Source of the DNA: Psammoneis japonica
Taxonomy: Eukaryota
DNA: 56,029 nt
Assembly: GCA_008632985.1 (NCBI GenBank)
Contig: QPGO01000010.1
Span: 868,001 to 924,029, forward strand
Reading direction: 5' to 3'
Shown here in pieces: positions 18,538 to 56,029 of this stretch. The number at the start of each line of letters is the position of its first letter. Position 1 is the first letter of the stretch. The notes beneath the pieces were generated by a model. The model searched no databases and was not told the origin of the DNA. It was given only the letters and a program-made list of their open reading frames with translations. Both the position numbers and the translations under genes were made by a program.

Positions 18538-18601
18538 GGTTGTGTAGCCCTCGTTGCCTCTGCAACCTTTTTGACAACAAACACCACCAACACCCACCAC
18601 C

Positions 18602-22700: not shown

Positions 22701-23110
22701 CACAACCTGAAATGTTGGTTGCCCAACACTTTTTCACTGGTGCTGCACACCAGCTGCAGCATGTTTCACAAAAGGGAAAATTGGGGTTGTGGGAAGTTGC
22801 CAGGGAAAAGGTGGCTAAAGTTTCCCCACAGGGACCCCATGCTGTGTGCAGAGACATGACAGGGGAGCACAGCACGGTCAAGGAAAAAGGAAAAAAAACT
22901 GCACGTTTGATTGACTCCACAAAAAGCTGGTTTGAGGTCACTGGCACATCTGCAAAGTGCGCTGACATTGTGTCCAGTGTTGTTGAGCAACAAGCATGGC
23001 CACACAGATGTGGACAACCAAGAAATGAAATCTTCAACAGAGGAGCTGATCTTTTCATGATCTTTTTCAGTCAAACAACACAAAAGGACTTGCCTTCAAA
23101 AGAAACCCTC

Positions 23111-26100: not shown

Positions 26101-26389
26101 GTGGAGTTAGTCAGCTGTGGGTGTGTGCTTTTTCTGCATTTTTCATGAGCAGCAAAGCAGCAGACATTGCATTTAGATGGCCCATGGCACGTCACTGTTC
26201 TTTAGACTGTTTGCTCTGCTGGCACTGGAGAGCAGATCAAGAGCTGCAGCGCCAATCATCTGGTCATCGTGCATGTGCATTGAACACATTGCAGAGCCTG
26301 TGAATCTTCTCTCTCCTCCTCTTTTTCCTCTGCTTTTTTTTTCACAAACTTGGAGCCACCTGCATGACCAGACACATGCCAAATTTCTG
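23111..26389. repeat. Older diverged tandem duplication, 2 x ~1.65 kb (units start at 23111 and 24765; copy B 48611-51887)
   Basis: Both units run from TCCAGCTGTGCAGGCAG.TCTTTACAAAACCTG to GGAGCCACCTGCATGACCAGACA, with many transition differences. Confidence 0.92.
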
Positions 26390-27200
26390 ATGTGCAGGGA
26401 GGAGCTGATTGAAAAATTGCAGTGTTGCCCATGTTGTGCTGCCGGTGCTCCTGGTGTTCCATTTTGTTGTTGTGTCCATGCCTCATTGCTGTCATCTCTT
26501 CACAAGACCTGTTTCATCAACTGTCTTTGCCACATGTGCCACATGTGACCGTGTGTTGTGCCACCCAGGTGCTTCCTCTGGCAAGCAATGGATGTCCATG
26601 GGGAAACACCATGTTGTTCTTTTTGGGCCATGTGGTGCAGTGCTGCTTCTGCACAATGATGATTGCACTCACAACCTGGTTCAATTTCAACATGGATCTT
26701 CACATCATGGTGGAATGCCGTGGTTCGCGACAAGAATGACAGCAAGAATTTGGCTGCTGACTGCCCAAAACCACTCATTTCAACAACAATGCACCATGTG
26801 CTGGTTCTCCATCATCCCCTGAGATCGACAGTGCCATGACACAGGTCCTCACTCCACCATTGCCGTCAAGCCAAAGCACGCAAAACGAAAAAGACGATCT
26901 TCCATCAACAATGCAGACGCAAAAACAGGCCAAACAATGTCATTTCTACACCATGCACAATTGCTTGTGGGTTGATTGATGAGTTGGAGGCCTGTCAGGG
27001 TGGTGGCAATGTGTTGCCATGTCAGCAGCGGTGGCATTTTGGTCATTGTGGTGTGTTTTGTGCCCATTTGTGTGAACTCTGTGACGGTGTGCATTCCGAC
27101 CGCACAAACAAAAAACATGTGGAAGCAGTGCCATTTTGTGTGGCCCAAAAAGAACAACATGGTGTTTCCCCGTGGACATTTGTCACTTGCTGGAGGGAGC

Positions 27201-29790
27201 ATGGGAGTCGCCTCAGCAGGGAAACTCTTGCATCATCTGGAGAAAGTCTCTCTTGACAAGAATCTCACCTGCGTTCTCTGTTTTGGGGCACGTCAGGTTG
27301 GTTGCAGTGTCTCCATCATTGCTTTTGATGCAAACTGGCTCTCCCAAAAGCTGCCATTAAAAAAGAAGGGTCCCATGTCATGAGTTGTTGATCTCATCAA
27401 GACAAGTTTCTTCTGATTGAAATCCATGCAATCGCTGTTGCTGATGGCATGAAGCATCACCATTCAAAGAAAGCAACCCCCAAAAAAATTGCCAAGACTG
27501 AACAAGCCAAGCTTGACTGTCCAGTGCTTTGAAAGAAAATTTTTGAGAAAGCAGAGTGGACTCATCCACCGTCTGTTGCTCTGCAAGAGCTCTCTGAGTT
27601 GAAGAAAGAGATGACATGTCTTGAAAAGAAGGTGACTGCAAAAGAGAGCTGCGCTCAAGAAGAGATTCCTTTGGATTTTGTCAACAACTTGGAGTTTGAG
27701 GTCAACAAGCTCAATGAGGACAGCAAGATTTAAGCACATGCCAAGCCATTGGCAGCAAACACACAGGTGGATTGTGTCATTTGCAAGCAGGCTGCATGCC
27801 AAGAGATTGATGGCGCCATCGCAAATGGCTCGGATTTTTGTGTTGCAGCCAGGAAGGACATGTTGCTCATCAAGAATTTCACGTTTGGGCACAGAAAGGG
27901 TTTGTCAGCTCTTCAGAACATGATGTTGGCAGCTTCAGTGGAATCTGTCTTGGCGGATGCAGTTCAAGATGGCATTGGGAAGGACAACACGAGTTGCACC
28001 ACAAAATCCAAAACACCACTTTTCCAAAAGGAAGACCCAATGATGAGGGCAATGATTGCTGTTGAAATTGGGTGCAACACTCTGCCTGGCGGGGTCCCAA
28101 GTGTTGGCACCAAAAGCATTGAAGAGTTCTTCAGTGCCAAGCCCAACGCGTCTGTGGATGATCTTGCGTTGCACTGCGAGAGCAAGTCATCCATGAACCC
28201 AACTGTGCTTTGTGCATTTGGTTTGGCCATGATCTGTGAGCCTGGCAACACATGTGATGAGCCGGTGTTGCAAAAGACACACTCATTCATGGCCCTCCAA
28301 CAGCTCTCCTGGATCATCTTAGAAAGTTTGCTGCTGGGACAGACATTGTGGTAGATGATTCTGTTGGCAGAAGTGACTGCTGCAGTTGTTGTGGCATTGG
28401 TCATGTGTTTGCCACCAGCAAGGACTTCAAATTGTGTTTGGAATGCAAGTCAACACTTTGCAAGCTTTGTGTCATGGATGCAAAGGAGGCAGACTCTGCA
28501 AGAGTCAATGTGCCACACTGCATCTCATGTCTGAGTGCTGCTGTGGGTGTTGACACCAAGGCGGAAGAGTCTCAGATGTCAACATCTAGGATGCATGAGG
28601 AACTTCTGTCTGCAAATGTGCGCGACATTGCCAACCTGTCCATCAATGAAGTGGAAGAGCTGCATGATGCAACAGTCAATGGAAAACACAATGAGATTGA
28701 TGGTTTGGATGACACTCAGTTTCCGGAGTGGCCTTCAAGTGAGACAAACAATTCATTGCATCTTCTAAAGAAAGTGCCACTAGATTTTGGTGATGGAGCA
28801 CTGTTCCTTCAAGCTGAGGAACTGGAGGACAAAGAGATCTGCAGTGTGGTTTGCATTCTCTCTGAGCTTTTGAAGTTCTCTGGCTTGCTGGACAAGAGCA
28901 AAAGCATGCATGAGCAAGCTGTTCCTGACATTGTTGCTCATTTTGCTCGAGAATCAAGATGAGACAGTGGTGAGCAGCTGATGAAGCACACAAATTGGCA
29001 CACTGCTGATCCTTGGTCTCAATCACTCGTGACAGCAACGGGTGCCATTTGTTGTGATTGCAACCTTGATGTGGCCTGCACTCTCATTGATGGAATGGCG
29101 TGGGCATCTGTGAAGGATGAGACACATGAAACAAGAGTGCACTTTTCTGCTGAAAGGCTCATTTGCTGCAGCTGCACATGCAAAGCTGGTTCACAGGGAT
29201 TGGAGAAGGTCATCTGTGTTCATGCTCTCTCCATCAAACAGAAATTGTGTCATTTGCTTGTTGATGGTCCAGCTGAACATGCGGTGTGTGAGTTGTCCAC
29301 TTGGTGGCAGGCGCCCAGTCCAGCTCTTAATGCACAAGTGGCAACTGATCTTCAAACTGACATTCTTTACCTGCTCAGCGTGGTTGATGCCTCCAAATGG
29401 ACTGGCTTGGCAGATGATGTTGCTGTTGGCACCATCTTGTCAAAACACTCCGTCAGAACTGAGAATGCAAAAGCACCGCCCATGCTGCTTCCAGTCAACA
29501 CCGCATTCCAGCCACTCCACACCTGCCTTTTTCAAAATCTGGCACAGAAATTCATCAATGAGATCAAGGGTGCAATGGATGCTGTTCATTCAGTTGATCA
29601 ATCTGCTTCTGTTTCTGCAGACCCATGCAATGCTTCCACTGAAGCTCCAGACTGCAAGCACATCATTGCTGTGAAACTAACTTTGTGCAACATTCTTGAG
29701 CGGCATGAGAAAGCAGGCAACTTCCTCAACTCCAGTTCAAAAAAGAAAACAGCTGACTGCATTGGCAACCACCTGTCTGCCTTTTGAGCA
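27201..29790 (+). pseudogene. Degenerate XPG/FEN1-like nuclease + Cys-rich (PHD-like) finger + SWIM zinc-finger protein
   Basis: Motifs in the expected order: MGV (27201), IIAFDANWL, IAVADG...HSKKAT, QVDCVI...EIDGAIANGSDF, IGCNTLPGGVPSVGTKS (H3TH-like), C..C...LC..C, and ASVKDETH...CSCTCKAG....ICVH (SWIM). Several stops and frameshifts. Confidence 0.75.
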
Positions 29791-30002
29791 TCAACTGGGG
29801 CCCCCAAACTTGTGACCAGGGACAGTGTCCAAATGTGCAACAAGCTGTCAATGGCATTGTTGGACGTGTGCAAAAGAGGATGTGTGGACCAGAATCCTGT
29901 GATTTGCAAGGTCAACTCACATGCCAGTAAAAAGACTGCCACAGAAAATGATGCAGATTCAATTGATGTGCAACACGAATCCAAACCGCTGGCCAAGAAG
30001 CA

Positions 30003-30430
30003 ATGGAAAAGTGTGGCTGGTTGGGAACTGATGAGCTGTTTCCTGGTGCAATGTCTGACTCTGATTGTTTCAATGAAACAGGAGTGTTGGAAGTGCAGCG
30101 TCAGTTTCAAGAGTGCAGTGGCAGGGTGCCGTTCACCCTCATCCTTGACTGTGGCCATCGATCGACTTGGGCGGCGCGGCACAATGTCCAGTTTGTGCTG
30201 CAAGCAACATTTGCACAGAGTGACAAGAAGTTCTCCACCGTTGATGTGCTGAGAGCTGCAAGTGTTGCTGCTGATCCTTCTGGAAATGAACAGGCTGTGC
30301 GTGTTGGAAAAATGTCATCATTCGTGAAGCGAGGAATGGAGACGCACAAGAATGTTGTGCGATTGTGCAACGCCTGGCTTGCGCGGAGCTTCCAAGCCAA
30401 CTTCATGTTCAAACCAGTGTTGCAGCTGTG
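30003..30430 (+). mobile_element. C-terminal part of a PIF/Harbinger/ISL2EU-type (DDE_Tnp_4-like) transposase
   Basis: GWLG..LFPGAMSDSDCF, ILDCGHR (D-x-G-Y), KKFST.DVLRAASVAADPSGNEQAVR (A..R...E). Confidence 0.75.
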
Positions 30431-33400
30431 GTTGACAACACTGCACTCAGAATTGGAGCTTGGTGGGCTGCCACCTGAAGCTGTGCTGGGCATGCCACAC
30501 AGTTCAGGGCTGTGGCTGCTGGGTGATCTTGCATTGTTGTGTGAGTTGGCGCTGGCTGGGCACACCAGCTTTGGTGGAGTTGGGCTGGTTGCTGACTTTG
30601 TCACAGGAGGAAGACTTGGATTGCATGGACTCAATTTGGGAACAAGATGAGTCACCAGAGGCAGAGCAGATGTGCCAGTCCAATTTGGTGCAGCCAAAGG
30701 TGCTGGGCTTTGCATGGGTTGGATGTGGGAAAGCCTGTGGGTGGGAGTCAGCTGTGTGACTGTTGAATGTCGGTGACAGGAGAAGGTCTTTGCTGCAGAG
30801 AGCTGCTTTGACTGCAGCTTGCGCAGTGCAAGGCTGCTGCTCAGAGCCATGCTGAGCATGTCACTCAGTGCAGGACCACATCTGCTTGGCAGTCTGGCCA
30901 CAGTGTGAGACAGCAGTTTGGCATCACCAGCGCTGGTGGCAGAGTTGGATTGGGCATCAGATCTGGCACAGGAGGAGGAGTTCTTGGCCATGGACTCAGA
31001 GTGGGGTCAAGAGGAGAGCAGGTGGGCACACAGAAGGTGTTGCAGCTTTTTGGCTTGGTTTGGTTTTGTCCATTTGGGGATTCCCCAAAATGGGCAGGGT
31101 GAGGGGAGTCACTTTGCCCTTTTGGGGAAAACCTGGGAAATGAGGGCAATTTGGCAGGAAGGAATGCCTGAAAGGGCTCAGGGGAGGGGAACAAAAACAA
31201 GTGGAGTGCAGCAATGTGCAATGACCACAGTTGGGCGGGTGTGCTTTCATCCCCACAACCATCCATCGTGGGCAACAACCACAACTGATTTGTCAACACA
31301 TTGGCACAAAGCGGCCCCTTGTGGCAGAGTGAGAAAAGAACAAACTTTGTCATTCAATCATCAATGTTAATGTTGCTCATGCACAGCTCTGTTTTTGCCT
31401 TGGCCTTTGCTCTGGAGCCCTTGTTGTTTGCATTTGTGACCACATGACTCAAGAAGGAAAAAATGATCCACTGCGTTCTGCACATGAGATGGGTCAAAGG
31501 GAAGAACAAGCACAACAATTCAATCTGCCACATTTTTGTTGGCCATGTGCAGCTCTGCTTTTGCCTCGTCCTTTGCTCTGCATGCCCCATGGCTTGCATT
31601 TGTGACTGCACGACCCTGCCGGCAGAGTGATTTGAGCAATCCACTTGACTCCAAACACAAGATGCATCAATTGGAAGAATGAGGCAGACTGTTCAATCTG
31701 CCATGCCATCATCATTGGCCATGCATGGTTCCACTTTTGCACTGGCCTTTGCCATGTGCCTCATTGCTTGCATTTGTGGCTGCATGACAAAAGAACAACC
31801 GCTGATGTCTGACGATCAATTGCACTGGCATTTTGCACATGAGCAACCACATTTTATCTTGTGTTTGATGCTGCAGATCCCATTCAATTGACATTGTTGA
31901 ATGCATTGAACGATGTCATGATTGATCAACAAAAGCCATCACAAATGGGGTGCGAGCACGCCATGGCGTGTTGCCCATTTTTGTTGCGGTTGGTCAACTG
32001 TCTGGCTGCATGCGTCCCAGCACACAAAAGGCATGGAAATGTATGAGAGGGGAAGCACAGGGAACTGCCAATGCACAATTTTTTATCTGTGAGTTGAGCA
32101 CATGTGTGATGAAGCATGGTTTGTGGCGGTTCCCCTGGAGTTCACACTTCCTGCAGAAAAACAGGGTGAAAGGTGGCAGCCCCAGGGGATTTGGGGGAAT
32201 CCTGCGGCAAAACCAAACCAAGGTTTTTGGGAATTGTTTGATTTGGTTGACAGTGTGCATGGATGAAGGTGCATCACATGGTGTGGGGAACTTGGGGTTG
32301 CAAAGGGAGAAGGGCAGCATCAAAGGCACAAGAGATGGAACACCGCTTGCTCCTGCTGAAGTCACAGTGCATGGAACCAAACTTGGCACTGCAGAGAGAG
32401 CAGACAAAGCAATGTCAAAGGGAAGGAAAAATGAAAGTGCTTTCAAAATTGCCCTGAAGGCGATGCAGATCACCAGGTGGATGGTCAGTCTTGTTGGACT
32501 TTGTGTGGCCACAGGCAGCCAGTGGCTGAGGAGTTGGGCTGGGCATTGGATCAGGCAGAGGAGAGGAAAACTTGGCTGCAGACTCAGACCAGATGCAGGA
32601 GGAGATGAAGGAGGCAAAGGGGTGGGCATGTGTCAATCCAATTTGAAGCTGGCAAAGGCTTTGGGTGGTCTGGTGCAGGAACGGGTTTGGGCAGCTCTGC
32701 TGGCTCTGGAGTTAGCCACAACATCAGATCAGGGGCAGGATGAGTGCCTGAGGTTTTCACTTCAGAGCTGCACCTGGGCACTGGGCTGCCACCTCTTGGG
32801 TTGCACCAGTTGTGTCATTTGGCACATGGGGTTGTGCACAACTTGGTGCAGCCTTGTTGCATCACCCAAATTTTCCACACGAGTTGTTTTCTGAAGTGCT
32901 GTCACATCATTTGGCACCTCCACTGCCTTGCTGTCTGCTGATGACACATTGTCCTCCTCAAAAGAATGGAGGAGTTTTCATCATGTGGGCCAGAACTTCA
33001 GCAAACCCTTGTGGTCAAGGGGCGTGCAAAAGAGGAGGACACTGTGCAGCCACACACTCATGTGCAGACCTTCCAGTCAATGAGTTTGACATTTTTTCAG
33101 CAACTGCCTCGTTGACATGATCTTGACACAAAGGGCATCACAACGGGAAGAAAAAATGAGCACTGTTGGCTGCTGCTGGGTGAATGACCAAAAACAGTTG
33201 TGCGCAATTTTCCACGGGGCTTGAGTCCTGCCACTTCAGCAGTTTTTCATCTTTTGCCAAAGCAACATGGCTCAAACCCCACAGAAATCATGTGGGGTGG
33301 ACAACACTGCCCACAAAATTGGGGATTGTGATGCTTGTTGTGCGCGAGTCATGGCAGTCATTGGCACTGGCACTCACCACCAGCTTGCTGAGATCCGCTG

Positions 33401-33508
33401 GCTGAGTGTGTCAACAAGGCTTGCCAGCCAACATTTTTGCAAAATTTGCTTGTTTTTGTGCAGGTGCACTGTCCAAGCAATGGCGCTGGGAGTGTGCAGG
33501 AGAGCTGA

Positions 33509-33853
33509 GGGCACCCAAGTTTTGCCCCAAAGGTGGGTGCCCAAGTTTCACCCCAAAGGGGGTGCCCAAGTTCACTCTAAAGCTGGGCTGTGCCCAAGTT
33601 TTGTTCCAAAGCTGGGCACCCAAGTTTTGCCCCAAAGTTGGGCACCCGCACAGGTTTTTCCCAAAAGTTGGGTTCCCCAGTCTCCCTCCCCCCTTCCCAA
33701 AGTTGTGCACCCAAGTTTCGCCCAAAGGTTGGCTCCCAAATTTGCCTCAAAGCTGGGTGCCCAAGTTTTGCCCTGAAGCTGGGCACCTCCAAGTTTTGCC
33801 CCAAAGTTGGGTGCCCAACTTTTGTCACCAAGTTGGGCTTCTTGGTGCACCCA
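33509..33853. repeat. ~26-bp degenerate minisatellite GGG(CA/TG)CCCAAGTTT(TG/CA)CCCCAAAG(T/C)T
   Basis: About a dozen recognisable head-to-tail units. Confidence 0.9.
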
Positions 33854-34824
33854 AACACAAGCCAGCTTGCCAGCAATGGGCAGCAGCTCTCAAGTGCTCA
33901 TGGGGCCAGCATGGGCTGACTTTGACTTTGGAGATGTTGTGCAGATCAGCAACAAGGGGCAACAAGCAAGTTCAAAAATGAACAAGAGCAGCTGCTCAAG
34001 GTTGCCAGCAGCACTGATGCTGACACAAGATGCTCTTTCTCAAGAGAAATTGTGGGTGCAAACCAAGCAAAGATCAAACAGTCATTTTGTGAGGAGAAAC
34101 AATGGATTTTTTGAATCCAGCCATCTGGGTGACACAGACAGTGATGTCATCAAGAACGACCACAACTGCGGCACAAAGACTGCCCAAAACCTGTCTTGTC
34201 GCTGCTCAAGGATCGAGCAGTTGACAAAGCAGCAATGTGGGGTGATGTCAGCTCACCCTTTGGACTGCCCTGTGGTGTGCATCAGTTGTGCCACCAGCAC
34301 CAGTCAGTGGGGCCACAAGTGCTGGGGGTGCAAACAAACTGTGATGAGGCTGCACTCATCATGCATGGAGGCTCACCTTCAAACATGAAGCGGCGCTTGT
34401 CCAAACTTGCTCTTTTGCGTTGTTGCTGCCTGCAAAGAAGGAGCTGAAGCTGCTCCAAAGCTGCTGGAAGAGGAGCTCAAGTGGTGCCATCTGGGCTTCA
34501 CAGCGCTTGTCTCAACTTGTTTTTGGAGCAGATGCTGCACTCAGGTGCCATGTTTAAAACAGCGGCCATGTGCTGTGACTCTGCTCCAGAGGTTTTGTTG
34601 GCAAGGGTTCTGTGATTTGCAACTTGCGACAAGAGAAAAAGAGGTGTGTGTCTGTTGCTCTCTTCTTTGTTTTGTCCAACACCATGCCACAGTCCATCAA
34701 AAAATTTCATCCACGAAGTTGAACATCTTTCATGCGTCGTTCATTGTTTGAGTCACCCGGCTGTGTCTTTCAGTGCAGCAGAAGTGCGCAAGGCCTGCAG
34801 TCTGCCGCACCGCACAGCACAGCA

Positions 34825-34934
34825 CCGCATGAAAAAACAGCAGCCGACCATGGACAAAACAATGACACCATGATGTGATTGACTGACAGAAACCGACAAG
34901 AGCACATTGTCAGTGACACACAGCAAATTTTATG
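34825..34934 (+). repeat. Extra ~110-bp diverged copy of the duplication's first sequence, located at the junction
   Basis: CCGCATGAAAAAACAGCAGCCGACCATGGAC...AAATTTTATG directly precedes the full copy at 34954. Confidence 0.9.
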
Positions 34935-35371
34935 AGTGGGGGCCCAGCAGGGGCCGCATGAAAAAACAGCAGCCGACCATGGACAAACCAATGACACCAT
35001 GTGATTGACTGACAGAAACTGACCAGAGCACATTATCAGTGATAGTAAATTTTATGCCTGTCTTAATCATTGTAGCATTTTATTTTTAAATCAATTGATT
35101 GCATACAAAACCCCCAACGACTGAATTTCGCGATAGGAAACTTGATCTTAGAAACGACAAATTAACGCTTTAATAAATAATTGCGTCGAAAAGCGTTACA
35201 CGAGAAAAAAACACGCAAGAGGCACGCGGAGTGAGCGAGCCCCCTTTTCCCGCTCAAATCGCCTCGATCTCTCCCGCAGTAGAAAATCATCTCACTTTTT
35301 TTTCTTTGCTGGGTCGACCAAGCTCCTTTCGTACATTTTTTTGTAAAGCAGTAAAGAAAAGTTTGTTCAAC

Positions 35372-37027
35372 ATGAGTGGTAAGTCTCTATCTCTCGTACG
35401 GAACTTGTTCTTTTCCTCTGCGTTGTTTGCTCATTCGCTCGTTCCTCCTTACAGAGAAATCGGACTTGCACAAAGCTCTCAGCATCTTCAAGATGTTCTA
35501 CTCCACCGTTCTCCTTGTGTTCTCGCTGGTGATCGTTATGGGCTTGATCTTCACAAGGCAGACGGCGTGGTCCGAGCAATACCATCCTGCTCTTGCCTTT
35601 ATTATCCTTTGGGTGATGTTGATTTGGCTCTCGTTCGTCGAGGGCGGACAGGCTTCGTTGGTTGGACTTCACCCGATTGACCGTGAGCTCTACAAGGACA
35701 CCCACCCGATCGCTTACAAGGGCAATGCCATGACCCAACAGGGAGATAACCTCGATCGCTACCTTATGGGCCGTCAGTTCATGGTCATCTTTATCGTTTT
35801 CCTCATCAACAAGTGTGGAGCCCCCATCGAAGGTGCTGAACTCTGGGGATTGCCAAGTGGATTGTCGACATCTTCCTTGTCACCGGATTCGCCATGATCC
35901 TCTTTACGGCACAGGTCGGGCAGTTGCAGTCGCAGGTCAACGCATCGCTCTGTATGCTTGACTACTTCAACGATTATGCAAACCTCTTCACGCTCTACAC
36001 TGCCAGGGCGATTGAATTCACTGGTCTCATGCACTTCTCCTACTTTATCCAGATTTGTGTTGGATACCTTGCTGGCAAGCCCATCGAATCCAAGGAGCCT
36101 CCGCGCAGCACCGGTCAATCTCTTTTCTTCTGGTTCCGTGTCCTTGTCTCGTTTGTCGTCCTCGGCTTTGCCTTGGCAGTCACCCTATCTGCTCTTTTCC
36201 AAGGACAAACCACCATGTGGGACGGTGTTCCCGAGGCAGTTGCCGTGATTCTTTTCTTCCTCCTCATGTCTGTCGTTGGTATGCTCGAAGGTATGCAGAT
36301 TGCCTTCTTTGCCGTCGCCAAGCTTACCAAGGACGAGCGTGGAAGAGCCAAGTGTGCCAAGATGACTTGCGACCTCCTCTACAAGGGCAGGGGACACAAC
36401 CTTCCCAATTTCATGATTGGCCGTCAGCTCAGTGTCGTGTCTTGCTTCTTCATTATCTCTCGTGTCACCACTGTCTCGATGGACGAGGGCAAGGGCAACC
36501 TGTGGGGTGTTAGCGATGGACTCCAAGAACTCTTTGAAACTGGTTTCCTTGGTGCCACCATTACTACCATTCTCGGATCCATCTCGTGGCAGCTTGTCGC
36601 GTCTGCCTTTCCCATTGCCTTTTTGTCAAACCCCATCACCTACCTGTTCCTCCGCATCTGTCTATTTTTGGAGGCCACCGGTATTTGCTCTGGAGCATGG
36701 TTCCTTGCCAAGATTGACAAGAAGGTCCGAGGCTTTAAGCGTGACGAAGTTTACATTGGCACTGCTGAGGAACGTGCTGCGCGCAAGGGCGGCAAAGAAG
36801 ACGAAGAAGAAAGTGTCGAGGCTGGCCATTTGTACCCGGCTGTTCCACTCTTGCCCAAGGACGTAGAATACAATGACCTCTCTCTCGATCAAATCGAAGA
36901 ACTCGAGGGCGAGATTGATGAACACATGAAGGAACTGCAGGAGCGCAAAGCCGGTTTGTCACTGCAGAAACAAAAGCTGATGAATCCTGACGGTTCAAGC
37001 GGCACTGCTGACATTGAAGAACCCTAA
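35372..37027 (+). pseudogene. SIT: Second SIT copy with a 1-bp deletion frameshift (possibly a consensus error)
   Basis: Otherwise matches the first copy. TTGCCTAAGTGG reads TTGCCAAGTGG at ~35854, which splits the ORF into 35376-35897 and 35894-37027. Confidence 0.85.
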
Positions 37028-37496
37028 GAGGGGATTCCCATCTATAATATCTAGGCCCCACACATATGGCGCCCTTTCGATGTTGGTAGTATTTGCCTTT
37101 GTTCATAACACAATGGCACAACATTTGCGTAATCCACCCGAATAAAATAATTTGACATTGTTTTGGGACACTTTTTATTTACTAGTGCCATGGTCTTCAT
37201 TTATCATCGGCCAGGAGAAGAAACAAGTAGGCCCTTGTGGTGTTGGGAGCTAGTAAAGATACGTCCTACTGTAGTTTCGCCACCGGACCGGTTTAGCGCA
37301 GCAGATTTGACACAAGCACCCTAAGGGTTCCCATCTATATCTAGGCCCCGCACTTTCTATTTTACTAGTGCCGTGGTTTTCATTTATTATCGGCCAGGAG
37401 AAGAAACAAGTAGGCCCTTGTGGTGTTGGGAGCTAGTAAAGATACGTCCTACTGTAGTTTCGCCACCGGACCGGTTTATCGCAGCAGATTTGACAC

Positions 37497-38169
37497 CGTG
37501 GTTCGAAGTAGATTACAATTCGGTGATTCATTCCAAAGAGCAGAAACAATTCAGAAATCTCCAGTACTGTCGACTCAGGCGACTGTAAAATCGGTTGGAG
37601 CCAATTCTTGTCTATTGTGAATTGTCTCATCCTGACTCGCTGTCTCGACGCTACTTGCTTGGGCACGATTTGCGCTTAGAACCAAAGATATTGATGGAAC
37701 AGTTGCTGCTCCATTTGATCCGGTCACCTTCTTTATAGGTACTTTGATATGGTGATCCTCTCGTCGTGGACGTTTGGACTCAGTGAAAACTTGAGACTTA
37801 CCCCAATTTTGCTTTGTCCATATGTGTTGTCACAGAGGAGGCAAGTCGGGATCTTCTTCAGTTTCTATCTCAAAGCTGTCCCAAAGGATGTGTTGTGCTG
37901 CTGTACGTCCCAATAATGGGGTCTGACCCTTTCGGAAGAGTGATGGAACAGAATCTCCTTGTTTCGGATGAATCGTGCCTCCTTCGAACACGAACACTCC
38001 ACGATCAGCTGGCAAAGATGGTGGCTTGCGGTTTTGACCACGCCGTTGGATGTGACAAAGTGGAGTGCTTATTAATACGCGACCGTGGTGACGCCGGAGC
38101 AACGCCGTCGAGCCAATCAATGTGACTTTTTAGACGAAAAGGCATTATTGTCTGCTTGTATGCTGCAAG
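37497..38169 (+). pseudogene. LCMT1/PPM1-like remnant, duplicate copy
   Basis: Matches 11988-12660. Confidence 0.7.
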
Positions 38170-39604
38170 TCACACAACAGTTTCGGACGAGCTTTCACAA
38201 AAGTTGGGCCTTCATCTCCCATTGGTTTTGTTGACGGTCGGTGTCACCTGGCTACCACGCCGTGACTGGCTTTCAATCTCTAATGAAGACATAGCTAGAG
38301 TAGGCTCGAGTAGACTAACTTTCATTCCTGCGATAAAATCTTCAGATCTACGCATCTTCGGGCTTTTCTTGCTTACCGGAAAGCTTGTAACCGAATCGAT
38401 TCTGATGTCTTAGTCGTTGCGTTCTAGTACGCTCCTCTCGTACAAAGGTGATGGTGGAAAGAAGTTGGGAGAGGGGAGGAATAGTCTGTACAGATCCATG
38501 TTGTTTGCCACAAAGAATGGCTCCAGACCTTGACGCACGCTCCTACGACGTATTGATGCATCCACCTGCTGCTCCTTGGTACAGCTCGGGACGGTGACTT
38601 CCCGGTGAGATGCGGCACTTAAACTCATGTCGTGATTGATTACAGAGGACGGATAGGCAGAAGGCAAGCCAACCGCACATTCTGTTAGGGTAAATTCAAC
38701 CGCACGAAGAAAATGTAGAATTTTGGAGGACTTTGTACAAAGTTTCTGCCGGAGGTAATGTCCATGTGGTCTTCGTCGTGGGATCGACATCGAGTTGGAT
38801 GTGTCTGTGCAAGAGGAAGCAACGAGACTGTTATGGATTCTTCGAGTACCATACCTAAAGCTACCAGTGCAGATTGATCAAACGATCAAAACAATGGGTG
38901 GGCCGCGTGATTTCGCTGTGCCGCCTTCCTCGTTGGTTTCTGTTGAACGTTGCGCTTTCCCCGCGAGATTCAGGAACAGATACTTAGACCTCTTCTGTTC
39001 TTTCAAAAAGTTGTCAAAAAGGCGATACGTTTCGTCGTCACTTCCATAAGTCCACCTGCCCTCTTGCCACGGAAGTCGTTTCGGTTTTCTGGTTTTGGGC
39101 GAATTCTCGTCAGCAGAAACATCATTTTTGGCCAAGAAACGATGCTTCAACCAAGTGCAGTTGCTCTGATATTGTAAACGAGGTCGTCGAATCAATGACC
39201 AAGCCTGCTCTTCTGCACGTTCTGAGATGAACTTGAGGTGTGATGGTCGCAACGGAGAGTCGGATAAAAAAAAGGTGATTATTTGAATCATTGTTTGATG
39301 TTTCGGGGACCGGCATTGATTCTATAAGACCTCTTCAGAAAGGTGGTTCGTCGGATTACTGTTGCTTTCTCCAGAGTAAGTACAGTGAGTGGCCCACCCA
39401 ACAAGGGAGCTGATCTCCTTCACTGGCATCGACTGAAAGCACAATCCTCGCCAGCCCAAGAAGAATCAGCGAATGTGTTCCAATCTACATAGTCTCTCTT
39501 TGTATCGCTCAGTTTTTTGTCCGTATCCTCACTATCTTCAGGAGCCCGAGAAGCGACATTTCGTGGTTTGTTGGGTCTGTTAGAGTTTCTTTCATAAAAA
39601 AAAG

Positions 39605-40516
39605 TCAACTATCCATGGTACATATCCTTTCACAGTAGCGTTCAACTAATCCCTTACAGATTGATGGCGGTTCAAAATCGAAAAAGCAGTAGTCTTGCTT
39701 CACATGTTTGCAGATTCTCAAAATAACCGCGGGACTGACATCGTGATGGAGATTATGAAATCTCATCTTTTTCCGATTTCTCAAGGACACGTTTCTTACA
39801 AGAGACTCATTCCAGTGCATGCGATGGATTTGGAAAAACATCTTTATATCCTTCATCTCACCAACAAATTTGATCCGATCCAGGTAGCGGAGTGGCTCGG
39901 TTCTATGAATCAAATATTCTATTTGAGGCGCTGTGTGGCGAAAGCAAATGTTTCCTCGCGCCTTGTTTAGGAATTCCAAAACTGATTGGTTGGAGTAGGC
40001 AAAATGAAATGATGTTGGCTGCTGGCGAAGGGCGCATTCCTTGAATCCAGCGAAAAAGTGATCTATTGGATCTCGAACAAACGTAAAGAGGTCATGGGTT
40101 GCGTACACGGGATTTTCCCTCGACAAAACGAAGGAAGATAGATTGCACTGACGAGATATAGTTGTCCCTCCTGCCTTGAGGATGTGGATGTAAGCCCATC
40201 TATCATTGCAGTCACAAAGGTGCTCACTGTTGAAGTCCCGTCTTGTTTGGACGGCATACTTTCGAATGCAGGGAAGATTTCGATTCCATGACTTGCTTTG
40301 CAAGAAAAAGGCATTACGAGTTGTAGTGTTTGCCGATAAAACCAGGTCGCCCGTCATGCCAACGACAGATGATTCTAGCTCGGAGGAAGCCGCACCATTG
40401 TTTTTGTCTTTGTCCGCCTCCGCAAAGATCACGCCAAACACTACGAGATACTGCACGGTTACAAATGCTAGGATGAGCAGGGGAATAACTGATTTTCCTT
40501 TAGCGGCACCAAACAT
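39605..40516 (-). CDS. Sulfotransferase-family protein, duplicate copy (intact)
   Basis: The translation from MFGAAKGK onward is identical to 14096-15007. Confidence 0.85.
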   Translation of the reverse strand: MFGAAKGKSVIPLLILAFVTVQYLVVFGVIFAEADKDKNNGAASSELESSVVGMTGDLVLSANTTTRNAFFLQSKSWNRNLPCIRKYAVQTRRDFNSEHLCDCNDRWAYIHILKAGGTTISRQCNLSSFVLSRENPVYATHDLFTFVRDPIDHFFAGFKECALRQQPTSFHFAYSNQSVLEFLNKARGNICFRHTAPQIEYLIHRTEPLRYLDRIKFVGEMKDIKMFFQIHRMHWNESLVRNVSLRNRKKMRFHNLHHDVSPAVILRICKHVKQDYCFFDFEPPSICKGLVERYCERICTMDS

Positions 40517-43500
40517 TTTCTCCTCCAACGAAAGAAGCGGCACCAAAGGAACGACGCTTTCGGTACAGCATACAGAAGAAATGATGCTTTGCTTTGTTCT
40601 TTCTATCACAAGTCTCTATTTCAAACGGAATTTTGCCAACAGCTCGGTTGGCAAAAATGACCGTCAGAATAGGTTGGGAACCTGTCCCGAAAATCTCGAT
40701 TCAAACAGACGCAAAGACAAAAGACCTCCTACTCGAGTTGCACGCAACAAACTGCGGCGCAGCACAATGATGAGTGCCGCCGGTGTCACCGTAGGCATTT
40801 TGATATCTCAACGAGTCTTTCACCGATTTTCCAGTTTCTTGTTTCATTCTTAGCGATAATTTCACAATCTGTCCGATTGGTTTGGTCCCATTGTGTGTCA
40901 ATTTCAAGTTTCAAGGTCAGAAAGAATGACACCCAAAATGACCCTTCAACCGCAGCAACGATGACCGATGAGGTGGCTGGACCTGGACGAGATGGGCGCT
41001 CGTGCTATGCCAGTGTGTTGGACAGATCGATTAGATGTAGATGCGATGCATGTGGATGCATGAGATGTTCTGGTCCCTTCTCTGGCTGAAAATCAGCATG
41101 TTCCTCCTCCCCCTCCTGTGCAGACGAATGAGGGTGTGGCCACCTCCCATGAGGAGACCAGGGGGCGTGACTGAAACAGAGCTTGGTCTGCTTGGCACAC
41201 AGCTCTTCTCAAATCACGATGTTGCAAGGCCATGCTGACACATCTCTTTGGCTTTGGACTTTAAAAATCAATGAAAAAACAAGCAGTTTTGCTTGTCAGA
41301 AAGTGTGCAAGAGCACCACAAAATTTGTGGCACAAGTTGTGGAGAGAACAAGTTGGGAGAGCTTCTTCATGAAACACCTTCGCTGGGCTGGGAAGCACGG
41401 GGCCATGGAAACAGTCTCTGGATGAGTTGAAAGTTGCCAGAAGTGCAGCTCTGTCATGGCAGAGTCTGTTGCAAAGATCATCAATGTTCTGAGCATCCCC
41501 CCTCCCTTCTCACTCAGGCCTGGCAGCTCCGATTTGTTGCACTTCCAGATTCTGTCTGTCTGCAGGGTCTGGCATCTGCAAAAAGATTTCCAAATTTCTC
41601 TTCATCTTCAGAGCAGAGTCGAGTCAAGTGCTTTCTGTGCTGGCAATGATGGGCTTGGCATGCCCCATGTGCCAGCAATGACAGCACATTTTTCTTTGAA
41701 GTGTGCGCCAATGAAGCCAAGGAGCCAACTTGCACCAAGTGGTGCCAAGGTGGTGCAGCGACCCCTTTGAAGAAGGCTTTTCCCAGCATCTTCATGTTTG
41801 GGGCTGTTTGAGATGATTTTGTCATGAATGACAGCACTCGCCAAATGTGGGCAGCATTGTGTTTGGAAGTGAGTGGATTGAGCAGTTGATGCACACCTGT
41901 GCAGATGGACTTTGCTTTGCCAACATCATTGTGCTCCCCAACAAAAGCTGCTTGCTCCTCCCACTTGTCCAAGAATCTTCTCACTGCACAATGATGCCAC
42001 ACTTGGCAAATTGCTTGAAGTGGAGCTTTGCACGGTGGTCGTCATCCATCTTCTGGATCAAACAGGTCAAGTTGAAAGCAACATTTGTGCCTTCTGAAGG
42101 CAGAACAAACAAGTTTTGAACCTGTCATCCATGGAAAAAATGTTGAGAATGTGTGGATTGGCTCTGGCATGAGAGCATCAGACAACAGGCTGGGTTGTGA
42201 GAATCACAGCACTCATTGCACTGAACATGTGCACTGCTGTGAGCAATGTTCTCTGTTGACAAATCTTTTTCTTCAGCTGCAGGAGGACATTTGAGTGCCT
42301 GTGGTGACCCCAGCAACTGCTGCTCCTCTCCTGCCCACTGTTCCTCAATCCTCAAGCAAGTCTCCCTGCTGTCATGAACAAATTTGGCACCAAGCCTTGC
42401 AATGTGCTGACCTCCTCAAACTTGGTCCTCCAGTCCTCTGTTTCCAGCACCGTTTTCTCAAAACATGATGAGTTTGGTGCACAATTCATGTTGGCACCAA
42501 AGTCAACCCACATCAGTCCTCTGGAGACAATTTGTCTGCACAGCATTGATGTTGCAACCATCCGCAGCTTCTGCACTTGCCCGGTTCTTTCATGTGCTTG
42601 CAACCTGGCATGAGCATGATGATCTCTTGCAGACACATTGGTCATTGCTGGGCACACTTTCCTAAAACCATGCACTGCCCACTGCGCATCACAGTCTTGA
42701 AAATCAGCACTGCTTGAGCAAGACAAGGGCAGGACAACTTGGTCAGTTTGGGTGGCTGCCAGATGCTTTGTGCAAAGTCCAGCAGCATGTTGCCTCTGCC
42801 TTTCTTCATCAACAACTCCCAGCCCCAATGTTTGCAAACACAACCCAAGTCTTTGCAGCTCCTTGCAACATCAGCAATGTCTTCTCAAAACCCAGAACCT
42901 TGTTGCAGCAGGGGTGCACCACCTTTTGGCAGTGAAGATGTGTCGCCCAGTTTGCAGCAAAGGACAAACTCAGCACTTTGACACCTGGGTGTCTTTGCCT
43001 TTTTGACTTTGGTGTCAGAGTCCCTGACTGAACACTGTCAACAAAGACTCCAACACCTTGACCAACACAGTGTGCCATGACAGCAGCAGCATTTGCATCA
43101 ATGGCATCACACACAAACTCTTCTTGTGTCATCTCACAACAAGTGTCAACAGCTGGCACTGTGCTCTGAAAACTCCACAGCTTGGCTCAAATTCTCCAAA
43201 TGAAATGACTCAACAAAGCAAGCTGCAGTTTTCTTGTAGAAATTTTTGTTCCAAAGAGGTGTGATTTTCCTTCAAGGTTGTGCCACTTGTTGTTGTGTTG
43301 CCCAACTTGACAAGGTCAGATGGCAGCAGCTTGCTGCAGTCATTTGTGCCATGAAGACTCATTGTGTGCCATGGTGGTGGCTGGTGTTGACTTGAACAAC
43401 AACCACTCATTAACTCTAAAATCAACTTTGCTTGCTTGGGAGTTTGCTTGGTGTTGCCAAGTGTGTTCCCTGCAGCAGCGGGTGTGGTGGTGGAAGGGCC

Positions 43501-43865
43501 CACTTTGACTTCAGCAGCTGCTTCTGCTGCTTCTTGTGTGGGTTTGGCAAAGTGTGTGCCCCCATCATTTTCTGTTGCATTGGTTGCACACCTGTGTTGT
43601 TGCACAACAGCTGCCTGCACTCCAGAGAATGAGCCAGGTCAGTGACCAAATTTGGTGAGCAGGTGAGCAGCAGCACTTTCTCTGGCAGCTCCAATTTGCT
43701 GATGCAAAAGACTGAGTTCAGCCACCAAAAACTGAGTGTGCTGATTTGCACTTGAGCTGCATGATGATGATTGCTCTTCAGACAATGGGCCAAGTCAGTG
43801 ACCAAACTTTGTGCATGGGTGTGCAACAGCATTTTCTCCAGCAGCTCCAACAGGTTGGTGCAGTG

Positions 43866-45258
43866 TGTCACGGTCAGCTGTAGAGCTCGTAGGACAGATG
43901 GACAGACGGACGGATGGACAGACGGAGCTCATTCGCACTGACTCAGAGAGATGATGTCGAAGATTCTCTGACGTAGCTAGCTCATAGACCACAGAGTAGT
44001 CGCAAGCCTCTTTAGCTCACAACATCTACACAAGACAGGTTGTGTAGCCCTCGTTGCCTCTGCAACCTTTTTGACAACAAACACCACCAACACCCACCAC
44101 CATGGCACCACCCTCCAGCACCAAACGCACTGGCAAGTCCAAATCGGGCAAGGGCTCTTCTGAATCGCAGAAGCCCAGCGCCACCACGACGCCCTCGCCA
44201 TCTCGCAATGCAGGGTTGGCCGGCATGGAGCGCGTCCCTCGAAAGAAGGGTGGGAAAGTCGACACGGCTCTCGATGAACTCATCGAACATGCGCCCAAAA
44301 AGGCGCCGCGTGATGACGATGTCGACCATCAGAACCCTGATGGCAACGCACTTAAGGACGATGACGTGCGTGACAATGACGGCATTGCAAAACTCATGTC
44401 AGTGACGAACTCGGATGATGTGGACGTTTCTGACGACGACAGTGTCTCGTCTGACAAGTCCGACAAGTCCAACACGGAAACCCCCCGCAAGCGCACCAAA
44501 AAGCACTTGTCTGAGCGCAAGCACGAGAGGCTTGCCGCCCGCATTGACGAAGTCACTACGGCTGCATGCGCTGACAAGCGCATTGCACAACCAGCTAAAC
44601 CGCTAGAAGACAAATTGACTGTGTCCCCTGAGTCATTCTTTGGCTTCCTCTTTTGTCTTGAGGAACGTCTTCAGAGCTCCCCTGTGTGGGCGAAAGTCAT
44701 GAAGCTCAACAACGGCATGTCTTTGACAAAAAACTTTGCCAAAGTGGAAGCGCATGTTTTCGAATTCCCAGCTGATGTGCCATGGGGTGTTGAAACCGAC
44801 GAGGTCATCGCCAAGAAATCCGATGGCCAGACATCCATGCATTTCGCGCAACGTGCGCTCAAGGCCCTGCTTGTTGCCTCGTGTGACAAAGAGCTGCGTC
44901 AGGCGATTGCGTCCGATGAAAATGTCATGGATCATCTCCATGAGGATGGCGCAATGTGCTTCTACCATGGCTTCAAGCAGCTGTTCCCATCGCCCGAGAT
45001 GTGTGTTAGCGGCATCCAGACAAAATTGTCTGAGGCAGGTTTCTCTCATTGACGATTGCGATGGCAATGTCAACGCGCACATGCATGAGTTCAGGCAGAA
45101 CCTCCGCCTGGTTCACAAGCGTGATGACACGCTCGAGCACACTCTCGTCGAGAAAGCCTTCAACGAACTCCAAACCGCTGCATGCAAGCCATTCGCAGCC
45201 AAGATGGCCGAGCATGAGACCGATTGGATGCGCAAGAAACACGTTAAATGGACCGTCA
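43866..45258 (+). mobile_element. Duplicate LTR + PBS + gag-like ORF (316-aa open frame 44102-45052)
   Basis: Copy of 18366-19757 without the first frameshift. Confidence 0.65.
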
Positions 45259-46853: not shown

Positions 46854-46868
46854 NNNNNNNNNNNNNNN
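46854..46868. other. 15-N gap within a poly-G run (copy A has ~23 G at 21347-21369)
   Basis: Seen directly. Confidence 0.95.
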
Positions 46869-55930: not shown

Positions 55931-56029
55931 TTGACAACACTGCACTCAGAATTGGAGCTTGGTGGGCTGCCACCTGAAGCTGTGCTGGGCATGCCACACA
56001 GTTCAGGGCTGTGGCTGCTGGGTGATCTT

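What the first reader, a model, noticed from the sequence alone, without database searches (positions are those of the whole stretch)
34825..35054. Adjacent repeat copies straddling the domain border show TA->TG/CA directly
The gene-side copy reads AGCACATTATCAGTGATAGTAAATTTTATG (TA at 35034, 35043, 35046). The TE-side copy ~130 bp away reads AGCACATTGTCAGTGACACACAGCAAATTTTATG. Three of the four TA sites correspond to TG, CA and CA, and the rest is nearly unchanged. This is an internal control that also places the border to within ~100-150 bp. Direction is inferred from the surrounding composition.
Basis: seen in the sequence. Interest (0 to 1): 0.85.

Follow-up and report, generated by a model that had tools for sequence, protein, structure and literature searches.

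The report
Repeat pair at a TA-erasure border
Two neighbouring copies of a 105-base repeat in a diatom-like genome differ mainly where TA in the copy next to an active gene reads TG or CA in the copy inside a long TA-free stretch, a small example of a process that wipes TA out of silent DNA.

Summary
R2 (34825-34934) and R1' (34954-35056) are about 92% identical. Three of their six substitutions are TA in R1' against TG, CA and CA in R2; the fourth TA is kept in both.

The pair cannot give the direction by itself. Window-wide evidence supports TA loss:
- The flanking domains have TA o/e 0.00-0.1 and TG/CA about 1.9.
- The TG/CA surplus roughly equals the TA and CG deficits added together.
- A 1.6-kb internal repeat shows 42 CA-versus-TG discordant dinucleotides, against 3.4 expected.
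- Surviving TAs fit a per-strand rule: A in 5'-TAY is about 92% lost, A in 5'-TAR about 49% lost. All three R2 changes go the way this rule predicts.

- R1' is the first base of a stretch of at least 21 kb that is 99.58% identical to 9446-30530. The adjacency may therefore be a duplication junction.
- The first 80 bp of R1' are also TA-free, so the border runs inside that copy.
- The "TE" label is unproven (0 of 116 ORFs have a Pfam domain).

The closest known case is the TpA hypermutation reported in Bigelowiella natans (2026 preprint). I found nothing on this for diatoms.

The parts
34825..34934 (+). R2, the copy in TA-poor DNA (1 TA, 3 CG, 11 TG, 17 CA)
34935..34953 (+). 19-nt spacer between the two copies; its last base is the last base before the large duplicated stretch
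34954..35056 (+). R1', the gene-side copy. The first 80 nt have 0 TA; the last 23 nt have 4 TA (35034, 35043, 35046, 35053)
9446..9548 (+). R1, letter-for-letter twin of R1', but with an unrelated TA-rich left neighbour
5584..5693 (+). R3, a diverged third independent copy of the same short element, inside TA-poor DNA
   Evidence: nhmmer E 2.4e-22
34932..35033 (.). TA-free run that ends the TA-poor domain; the TA border is at its right end
34700..35033 (.). Fringe that is TA-poor (o/e 0.05) but no longer strongly CG-poor (o/e 0.59, against 0.16-0.23 further left)
15760..34931 (.). TA-poor, CG-poor, TG/CA-rich domain to the left of the finding
9446..30530 (+). Unit 1 of the near-identical duplication
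34954..56029 (+). Unit 2 of the duplication (99.58% over 21,098 columns); it runs off the window end
35034..41038 (.). TA-normal gene island of unit 2: a silicon transporter gene on + and an unnamed ORF on -
35343..37027 (+). Silicon transporter gene. A spliced contig starts at 35343; the intron is 35378-35453 (GT..AG)
23111..26356 (+). Two tandem 1.6-kb copies inside the TA-poor domain (23111-24715 and 24765-26356), used to polarise the process
9173..9445 (.). TA-rich 273 nt to the left of R1. It holds a hairpin with 45-nt arms at 9174-9284 and lies between TA-free 8374-9172 and the TA-free 5' part of R1

Best explanation
R is a short dispersed element of about 105 nt, with three independent copies in this window. 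R2 lies in DNA subject to a region-limited mutation process that turns TA into TG or CA. That is A-to-G on one strand or the other, most simply by deamination of adenine that follows T. The process acts far more efficiently when the next base is a pyrimidine (5'-TAY-3'). CpG decay runs in the same domains. R2 has lost three of four TAs this way. The last 23 nt of the gene-side copy lie in protected DNA, starting about 310 nt upstream of the silicon transporter transcript, and they keep the older TA states.

Shown: the differences; the domain composition; the context rule; independent post-duplication conversions in the 1.6-kb repeat; and the sharp border.
Inferred: the direction at these three sites; that the process acts on DNA in place; that chromatin state sets the border; and the enzyme (an ADAT/TadA-like adenine deaminase is a guess).

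The adjacency of the two copies coincides with the left end of a recent duplication of at least 21 kb. Its age is open.
For: (1) Domain composition. One-kb windows of 1001-7000, 16001-18000, 20001-35000 and 41001-56000 have TA o/e 0.00-0.16 and TG/CA 1.56-2.52. The islands have TA 0.35-0.76.

(2) Mass balance per kb, TA-poor DNA against the island: CA/TG +86.2, CG -35.7, TA -35.9.

(3) The 1.6-kb tandem pair has 177 substitutions, 156 of them transitions. It has 42 dinucleotides that read CA in one copy and TG in the other. The null mean is 3.4 and the maximum is 10 in 1000 simulations. This needs a TA or CG ancestor converted independently in each copy after the duplication.

(4) The 68 surviving TAs in 25.2 kb of TA-poor DNA split YTAR 41, YTAY 14, RTAR 12, RTAY 1. 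The island has 40, 85, 67, 52. A two-parameter per-strand model (survival 0.51 for TAR, 0.082 for TAY) predicts 41.4, 14.1, 11.1, 1.4, chi2 0.18; uniform survival gives chi2 98.9. YTAR is the largest class in all four strongly depleted blocks: 5 of 5, 13 of 22, 11 of 22 and 12 of 19.

(5) Products agree. TGY/RCA trinucleotides gain 60.2 per kb and TGR/YCA gain 26.0.

(6) The three R2 changes are TG at a YTAY site and CA at two RTAR sites, each as the rule predicts.

(7) A contig of run X1 matches 33500-34854 with 0 differences at depth 115, so the TA-poor sequence is in the reads.

(8) TpA->TpG/CpA hypermutation has been measured de novo in another alga (bioRxiv 10.64898/2026.01.13.699255).
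Against: The pair gives only three informative sites. R3, the only further copy, has the R2 states (TG, CA) at two of them, so plain parsimony would make TA the derived state. R3 is itself in TA-poor DNA, and the context rule predicts the same products, so I read this as convergence; that reading is an assumption.

One substitution runs the other way for CpG: R2 keeps CG where R1' and R3 have TG.

A homogeneous decay model fitted to the 1.6-kb pair gives about 12 of the 42 discordant sites to CG and under 1 to TA (my arithmetic). Their assignment to TA therefore needs near-saturating loss at most TA sites. Their flanks (R..R 20, R..Y 10, Y..Y 9, Y..R 3) do not separate TA ancestors from CG ancestors.

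The island baseline contains coding sequence, and the ancestral composition of the TA-poor DNA is unknown.

Between the two large units, 3 of 60 TA sites in TA-poor DNA differ. That equals the background rate if read as TG/CA->TA, so present-day activity is not shown.

Run X1 may be the data the window was assembled from, so it is not independent. No enzyme could be sought because no genome is held.
Confidence: 0.65

Rival explanations
1. The TA loss happened before the DNA reached its present place. One route is A-to-I editing of element transcripts followed by reverse transcription; another is hypermutation during transposition. The two R copies would then differ because they descend from edited and unedited source copies, not because of where they now lie.
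For: A 5' U/T preference is what ADAR-type editing shows (as stated in the preprint). R is a dispersed element. The first 80 nt of R1 are TA-free even where R1 lies between TA-rich DNA in unit 1.
Against: The two tandem 1.6-kb copies diverged by CA-versus-TG discordance after a DNA-level duplication. Both products occur side by side (TG 166 and CA 114 shared sites; discordance 21:21), whereas editing of one RNA strand should give one product. TA loss covers whole domains in which I found no element structure or domain (0 of 116 ORFs), and it stops at gene islands.
Confidence: 0.12
2. The domain-wide process is real, but the three TA differences in this pair are ordinary divergence. They tell nothing about the border, because the two copies became neighbours only through the recent duplication.
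For: 34954 is the first base of the 99.58% duplicate, and the twin at 9446 has a different left neighbour. The sample is three sites. The copies are about 8% diverged, far older than the duplication.
Against: Three of 6 substitutions fall in 8 of 103 positions (p = 0.0056), all are transitions to TG/CA, and all go in the predicted direction. Even if the copies were once 25 kb apart, R2 lay in TA-poor DNA and the 3' end of R1 lay beside the promoter, so the comparison between contexts still holds.
Confidence: 0.08
3. Reverse direction: TG/CA is ancestral, and the gene-side copy gained three TAs by C-to-T changes (ordinary or RIP-like).
For: R3 shares TG and CA with R2 at two of the sites. Fungal RIP makes TpA from CpA (recalled).
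Against: It would need 3 changes within 13 nt of a copy that otherwise has at most one private change in about 95 nt, and none at the 20 CA/TG sites of its first 80 nt. The surrounding domains have lost TA rather than gained it. The survivor context rule fits the loss direction.
Confidence: 0.06
4. Artefact: modified bases in silent chromatin are misread during long-read base calling, so that TA and CG appear as TG/CA in the assembly.
For: The assembly has long-read-type errors. There are 31 small indels between the two units. One of them, at 35852, is contradicted by contigs of X1 and X2, which carry an extra C.
Against: An X1 contig of 1410 nt at word depth 115 matches 33500-34854 with 0 differences and no alternative letters. 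Strand-specific miscalls would break such contigs at every site. The 12% divergence of the 1.6-kb pair is far above the error level.
Confidence: 0.04
5. Selection or a structural constraint against TA in these domains (for example avoiding TA-targeting transposons or nucleases), rather than a mutation bias.
For: None specific. TA is mildly under-represented in most genomes, including the 10 related loci (o/e 0.35-0.89).
Against: Selection cannot plausibly remove about 93% of TA from tens of kb without recognisable genes. It also does not predict the per-strand 3'-neighbour rule or the CA/TG discordance.
Confidence: 0.03

Closest known systems
TpA-targeted hypermutation of integrated viral and other foreign DNA in Bigelowiella natans (bioRxiv 10.64898/2026.01.13.699255; I read the abstract, passages, and sections 11 and 12; supplements closed)
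   Same: The changes are TpA->TpG/CpA only and are confined to particular regions while ordinary genes are spared. There is a long-term footprint of TpA-poor, CpA+TpG-rich clusters of 1-kb windows. The preprint's cluster cut-offs (Rho TpA <= 0.43, Rho CpA+TpG >= 1.52) are exceeded here by most windows.
   Different: This is a different supergroup: the window encodes diatom-type silicon transporters. Nothing de novo was measured here. The loss is close to complete over most of 56 kb and is coupled to CpG loss. A foreign or viral origin of the DNA is not shown. The 3'-neighbour rule (TAY over TAR) is not mentioned in the main text: 0 occurrences of 'context', 'trinucleotide' or 'flanking'. The supplements, which I could not see, may hold it.
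Repeat-induced point mutation (RIP) of ascomycete fungi
   Same: It is a region-limited flood of transitions that ruins repeated or silent DNA and leaves sharp compositional borders beside genes. Diverging tandem copies are dominated by transitions (156 of 177).
   Different: The chemistry and footprint are opposite. RIP is C-to-T, mainly at CpA, and enriches TpA (recalled); here TA is erased and CA/TG is enriched. Dependence on duplication is not shown here, and the organism is not a fungus.
Methylation-driven CpG decay
   Same: CG is depleted to o/e 0.03-0.35 in the same domains, with a gain of TG/CA. Between the two units, 21 of 262 CG sites differ in TA-poor DNA against 0 of 312 in the island.
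   Different: It cannot remove TA. Its border lies about 330 nt further from the gene than the TA border. Zones that are TA-poor but CG-normal exist: 8374-9172 has CG o/e 0.60 and TA 0.
Deaminase editing of retroelements (APOBEC on DNA, ADAR on RNA)
   Same: Hypermutation by deamination with a fixed 5' neighbour; a T/U before the edited A, as for ADAR.
   Different: Both strands are hit in place. The preferred 3' neighbour is a pyrimidine, whereas ADAR is said to prefer G (recalled). No retroelement domains were found.

Membership tests
TpA->TpG/CpA regional hypermutation (B. natans type) | Changes are A->G / T->C at TpA only | tested here: met
   In the pair, 3 of 4 TA sites differ as TG/CA. 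The TA deficit of 35.9 per kb reappears as a CA/TG surplus. This is inferred from present-day sequence, not seen de novo.
TpA->TpG/CpA regional hypermutation (B. natans type) | Confined to particular regions, with ordinary genes spared | tested here: met
   TA o/e is 0.00-0.16 in the domains against 0.35-0.76 in both gene islands. The switch occurs within the 102-nt run 34932-35033.
TpA->TpG/CpA regional hypermutation (B. natans type) | Target DNA is of viral, transposon or other foreign origin | tested here: inconclusive
   0 of 116 ORFs reach a Pfam cut-off. One ORF (P0121) has a single 32%-identical relative with no family. Small dispersed and tandem repeats are present.
TpA->TpG/CpA regional hypermutation (B. 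natans type) | Elevated de novo rate in mutation-accumulation lines | not testable with these tools
   No lines are available. Between the two units, 3 of 60 TA sites differ in TA-poor DNA against 0 of 226 in the island (p = 0.009), but the direction is unknown.
Fungal RIP | C->T at CpA giving TpA enrichment and CpA/TpG loss | tested here: not met
   The footprint is the opposite: TA 2.7 against 38.6 per kb, CA/TG 227.5 against 141.3 per kb.
Fungal RIP | Triggered by sequence duplication | tested here: inconclusive
   The tandem 1.6-kb copies are heavily converted. So is DNA at the lowest unit depth: the 33500-34854 contig has depth 115, against 203 for the duplicated part.
CpG decay by 5mC deamination as the sole cause | Accounts for all lost dinucleotides | tested here: not met
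   The CG deficit (35.7 per kb) covers under half of the CA/TG surplus (86.2 per kb); TA loss is equally large.
ADAR-type RNA editing fixed through retrocopies | A->G on the transcribed strand only | tested here: not met
   Both TG and CA products occur in the same repeat: 166 and 114 shared sites, and discordance of 21 each way.
ADAT/TadA-like adenine deaminase acting on DNA | Target A preceded by T (U33-A34 of tRNA; recalled), with a matching enzyme encoded in the genome | not testable with these tools
   The 5' T requirement and the TAY preference are seen. No genome is held for an enzyme search.
Short non-autonomous element (MITE-like) for R | Discrete ends shared by dispersed copies, terminal inverted repeats, target-site duplication | tested here: inconclusive
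   Three independent copies share start and end. No further copies are found in the window (next nhmmer hit E 0.048). Inverted ends and target duplications were not tested.

The most novel reading that the evidence does not exclude
This diatom-like alga runs a chromatin-domain-wide DNA adenine-deamination defence. It reads 5'-TAY-3' on either strand and erases almost every TA, and with it all TAA/TAG stops and TA target sites, from silent DNA. It works independently of CpG methylation decay and stops within about 100 nt at a line about 310 nt upstream of an active promoter. If so, TpA hypermutation, so far reported for one rhizarian alga, would be a widespread SAR-lineage counterpart of fungal RIP with its own sequence signature.
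Probability: 0.4. Interest if true: 0.85.

Novelty: new member of a known kind. Interest (0 to 1): 0.6.

Why it matters
If the reading holds, TA-specific hypermutation is not a peculiarity of one chlorarachniophyte. It would also operate, close to saturation, in a silicifying stramenopile, a group of major ecological weight.

The window offers three things the published case does not report in its main text:
- a per-strand 3'-neighbour signature (TAY far above TAR) that any candidate enzyme must reproduce;
- a border sharp enough to map against chromatin marks;
- evidence that TA loss and CpG loss have different borders.

TA-free DNA also lacks TAA and TAG stops, so it produces long spurious ORFs in every frame, which matters for annotating such genomes.

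The repeat pair itself is only a small illustration of all this.

Tried and rejected
- Whole genome: none is held, so the test over all genomic copies could not be run.
- More R copies in the window by nhmmer: only the four known places. The next hit has E 0.048.
- Homology upstream of R1 and R2 in purine/pyrimidine coding: local score 23.5 against a null mean of 21.4; 27.6% of 2000 random segments score as high. Rejected. The many short hits are noise of the two-letter alphabet.
- Protein remnants to polarise TA codons: 0 of 116 ORFs reach a Pfam cut-off. The 10 longest ORFs gave only the silicon transporter. P0121 has 2 relatives in 1.84 billion representatives, with no Pfam family for the better one. 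The 30%-identity alignment is too distant to count Tyr->Cys/His. The search for longer forms found none.
- Flanks of the 42 discordant sites to separate TA ancestors from CG ancestors: not informative.
- TA-poor DNA beside silicon transporter genes of other organisms: 0 of 10 metagenome loci have any 1-kb window with TA o/e below 0.35. Eight of the ten are under 5 kb.
- Rfam on 33000-36000: one match, far below its gathering score.
- Tandem Repeats Finder does not list the pair, only two 25-26-nt arrays.
- Earlier findings of this scan: nothing on this genome, sequence or theme.
- No RNA holder was listed among the sequencing runs.
- The junction contig 34829-34983 has 30 letters to the right of the junction, one short of the tool's bridging rule. 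Those letters are shared by all R 5' ends, so it does not prove that R2 is joined to the gene island.
- Literature: five searches found no paper on TA loss in diatoms. I saw listings only, except for the B. natans preprint.

Full report
WHAT THE WINDOW IS. The window holds two silicon transporter genes (Pfam PF03842, E 1e-208 and 1e-152). Their best relatives are unnamed or diatom proteins at up to 76% identity. It is therefore nuclear DNA of a diatom-like silicifying alga. No whole genome is held.

Composition is sharply two-state:
- In 1-kb windows of 1001-7000, 16001-18000, 20001-35000 and 41001-56000, TA o/e is 0.00-0.16, CG o/e is 0.03-0.41 (0.95 in the window 44001-45000), and TG and CA o/e are 1.56-2.52.
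- In the two gene islands (about 9.2-15.5 kb and 35.0-41.0 kb), TA is 0.35-0.76 and CG is 0.73-1.03.
- Ten loci around related transporter genes from metagenomes show no 1-kb window with TA o/e below 0.35, so the TA-poor state is not a general habit of such DNA.

THE OBSERVATION. The two copies exist as described. I call them R2 (34825-34934) and R1' (34954-35056). They differ by six substitutions and two indels.
- Three substitutions pair TA in R1' (35034, 35043, 35046) with TG, CA and CA in R2.
- The fourth TA (35053) is TA in R2 as well (34931).
- Two substitutions are A/C transversions.
- One is CG in R2 against TG in R1'.
Three of six substitutions fall in the 8 TA positions of 103 (p = 0.0056).

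(a) The stretch 34954-56029 is 99.58% identical to 9446-30530 over 21,098 columns. The first base of the gene-side copy is therefore also the first base of a large recent duplicate.
- Its twin R1 (9446-9548) is identical letter for letter.
- R1 is preceded by unrelated, TA-rich DNA (9173-9445, 21 TAs) that contains a hairpin with 45-nt arms.
- One of the two left junctions is thus a recent breakpoint.
- Contigs of run X1 have word depth 115 over 33500-34854, 122 over 34829-34983 and 203 over 34958-35492. This fits R1 plus the gene island being present twice for each single copy of the DNA that ends in R2.
- The junction contig has only 30 letters to the right of the junction, and all R 5' ends share those letters. 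It therefore does not prove the join.
- I cannot tell a true duplication from two haplotypes laid in tandem. X1 may also be the assembly's own data.
(b) A fourth, diverged copy (R3, about 5584-5693) lies in TA-poor DNA, so R is a short dispersed element.
(c) The first 80 nt of R1' have 0 TA and 20 CA+TG. The TA border therefore runs inside the gene-side copy, at 35033/35034, not between the copies.
(d) The 'TE' label is unproven: 0 of 116 ORFs of at least 100 aa in the TA-poor DNA reach a Pfam cut-off.

DIRECTION. The pair alone cannot polarise the changes. R3 carries TG and CA at two of the sites, as R2 does, but R3 is itself in TA-poor DNA. I therefore looked for evidence across the window.

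First, mass balance. Per kb, TA-poor DNA has 86.2 more CA/TG than the island, 35.7 fewer CG and 35.9 fewer TA. CpG decay alone covers under half of the surplus.

Second, the two tandem 1.6-kb copies at 23111-26356.
- They differ by 177 substitutions, 156 of them transitions.
- 84 of these substitutions sit in 42 dinucleotides that read CA in one copy and TG in the other. The null mean is 3.4 and the maximum is 10 in 1000 simulations.
- In purine/pyrimidine coding the copies are 96.3% alike, against 87.6% in letters.
- Such discordance needs a palindromic ancestor (TA or CG) converted independently, on opposite strands, after the duplication.
- How many of the 42 were TA rather than CG I could not settle. 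A homogeneous decay model gives about 12 to CG and under 1 to TA (my arithmetic), and the flanks do not help.

Third, a context rule.
- The 68 TAs that survive in 25.2 kb of TA-poor DNA split YTAR 41, YTAY 14, RTAR 12, RTAY 1. The island has 40, 85, 67, 52.
- A model in which each strand is hit on its own fits closely. With survival 0.51 when the A is followed by a purine and 0.082 when it is followed by a pyrimidine, it predicts 41.4, 14.1, 11.1 and 1.4 (chi2 0.18). Uniform survival gives chi2 98.9.
- YTAR is the largest class in each of four separate blocks.
- The products agree. TGY/RCA trinucleotides gain 60.2 per kb and TGR/YCA gain 26.0. The TA-containing trinucleotides left are TAT/ATA 0.3, TAC/GTA 0.8, TAG/CTA 1.8 and TAA/TTA 2.5 per kb, against 18-22 in the island.
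- A strand-wise, neighbour-dependent rule is what an enzyme gives. Selection or chance would not.

Applied to the pair, the YTAY site should become TG and the two RTAR sites should become CA, and that is what R2 shows. Under the fitted rates this outcome has probability about 0.5, against 0.125 if the strand were chosen at random (my arithmetic). That is supportive but weak.

The reverse reading needs three C-to-T changes within 13 nt of a copy that has at most one other private change, and none at the 20 CA/TG sites of its first 80 nt.

THE BORDER.
- TA is absent from 34932 to 35033 and dense from 35034: 23 TAs in 35034-35400, o/e 0.67.
- A spliced contig of run X2 starts at 35343 and skips 35378-35453 (GT..AG), so the transporter gene is expressed. 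The protected zone begins about 310 nt upstream of that contig's end.
- CG recovers earlier: o/e is 0.16-0.23 in 33000-34700, 0.59 in 34700-35033 and 1.52 beyond.
- In unit 1 the stretch 8374-9172 has no TA but CG o/e 0.60.
- TA loss and CpG loss therefore have different borders and are probably separate processes.

IS THE PROCESS STILL RUNNING? Between the two large units:
- The island has 1 substitution in 6,309 aligned positions; the TA-poor part has 43 in 14,739.
- 21 of 262 CG sites differ in TA-poor DNA, against 0 of 312 in the island.
- 3 of 60 TA sites differ in TA-poor DNA, against 0 of 226 in the island (p = 0.009).
- In all three TA cases unit 2 has the TA. Read as TG/CA->TA, the same three changes equal the background rate, so present activity is not shown.
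- Caveat: the units also differ by 31 small indels. One of them, at 35852, is contradicted by contigs of both runs. Some of the unit differences may therefore be consensus errors, possibly at methylated sites.

MECHANISM. The simplest chemistry is deamination of adenine to hypoxanthine, which is read as G, on either strand of DNA when the adenine follows T. Pyrimidine is strongly preferred as the next base. The action is limited to silent chromatin, with ordinary 5mC deamination acting at CpG in an overlapping but not identical territory.
- Shown: the footprint, the context rule, independent conversions after a DNA duplication, and the sharp border.
- Inferred: the direction at the three sites, action in place, and control by chromatin.
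- Guessed: the enzyme. The B. natans authors propose an ADAT2-like deaminase. From memory, tRNA adenosine deaminases act on A34, which always follows U33, and the bacterial enzyme's substrate reads UAC; this would suit TA and TAY.

COMPARISON WITH WHAT IS KNOWN. The closest case is the 2026 preprint on Bigelowiella natans. It reports mutation-accumulation lines with almost exclusively TpA->TpG/CpA changes in two integrated viral regions, plus TpA-poor, CpA+TpG-rich clusters elsewhere.
- Its main text mentions neither diatoms nor a flanking context.
- Fungal RIP is the functional analogue, but with the opposite footprint.
- Five literature searches found nothing on TA loss in diatoms.
- I therefore file this as a new member of a recently described kind, with added detail.

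VERDICT. The geometry is complicated by the duplication junction and by the TA-free 5' part of the gene-side copy. The 'TE' label is unproven. The pair is a modest illustration; the domain-wide process and its signature are the interesting part.

Noticed in passing
window 9446-30530 and 34954-56029: A near-identical (99.58%) duplicate of at least 21 kb, spaced 25,508 nt, carrying a silicon transporter gene, a second ORF and about 15 kb of TA-poor DNA. It may be a true duplication or two haplotypes laid in tandem.
   Followed up: partly
window 15760-30530 against 9446-15759 (and their twins): Between the two units there are 43 substitutions in the TA-poor part and 1 in the gene island. 21 of the 43 are CG<->TG/CA. 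Some may be consensus errors.
   Followed up: partly
window 35852 (twin 10344): Unit 2 lacks a C that contigs of both runs carry and that unit 1 has. This splits the second transporter ORF (35376-35897 and 35840-37027), so the split is probably an assembly error rather than a pseudogene.
   Followed up: partly
window 9174-9284: A TA-rich hairpin with 45-nt arms (91% complementary, 21-nt loop) lies exactly where TA resumes, between TA-free 8374-9172 and the TA-free 5' part of R1. It is possibly a young, unconverted insertion.
   Followed up: no
window 7001-9172, 18001-20000, 44001-45000: Zones that are TA-poor (o/e 0.07-0.18) but nearly CG-normal (0.67-0.95). TA loss without CpG loss suggests two separate processes.
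   Followed up: partly
window 44075-45052: A 325-aa ORF in a TA-poor, CG-normal zone has one 32%-identical relative of 583 aa with no Pfam family. It is the only sign of a real gene inside the TA-poor DNA, and its twin in unit 1 is broken into shorter ORFs.
   Followed up: partly
window 35474-35585: Run X1 holds a second contig with 6 differences in 112 nt at depth 91.5, beside the exact one at 219.8. This points to a further transporter copy or allele elsewhere.
   Followed up: no
TA-poor domains, whole window: With TAA and TAG almost absent, long stop-free frames overlap on both strands (116 ORFs of at least 100 aa in about 29 kb). This is a trap for gene callers.
   Followed up: partly
window 11659-11804 and 11842-11987 (twins 37169-37313, 37351-37496): A 146-nt direct repeat (96.6%) just downstream of the transporter ORF, in TA-normal DNA.
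   Followed up: no
TA-poor domains: CG loss also depends on the neighbour. TCG/CGA falls to 18% of the island value, ACG/CGT and CCG/CGG to about 26-27%, and GCG/CGC to 49%. The island baseline contains coding sequence.
   Followed up: no
window 33514-33642 and 33696-33824: Two arrays of a 25-26-nt tandem repeat (about 5 copies each) inside the TA-poor DNA.
   Followed up: no
window 46854-46868: A run of 15 N (assembly gap) inside unit 2.
   Followed up: no
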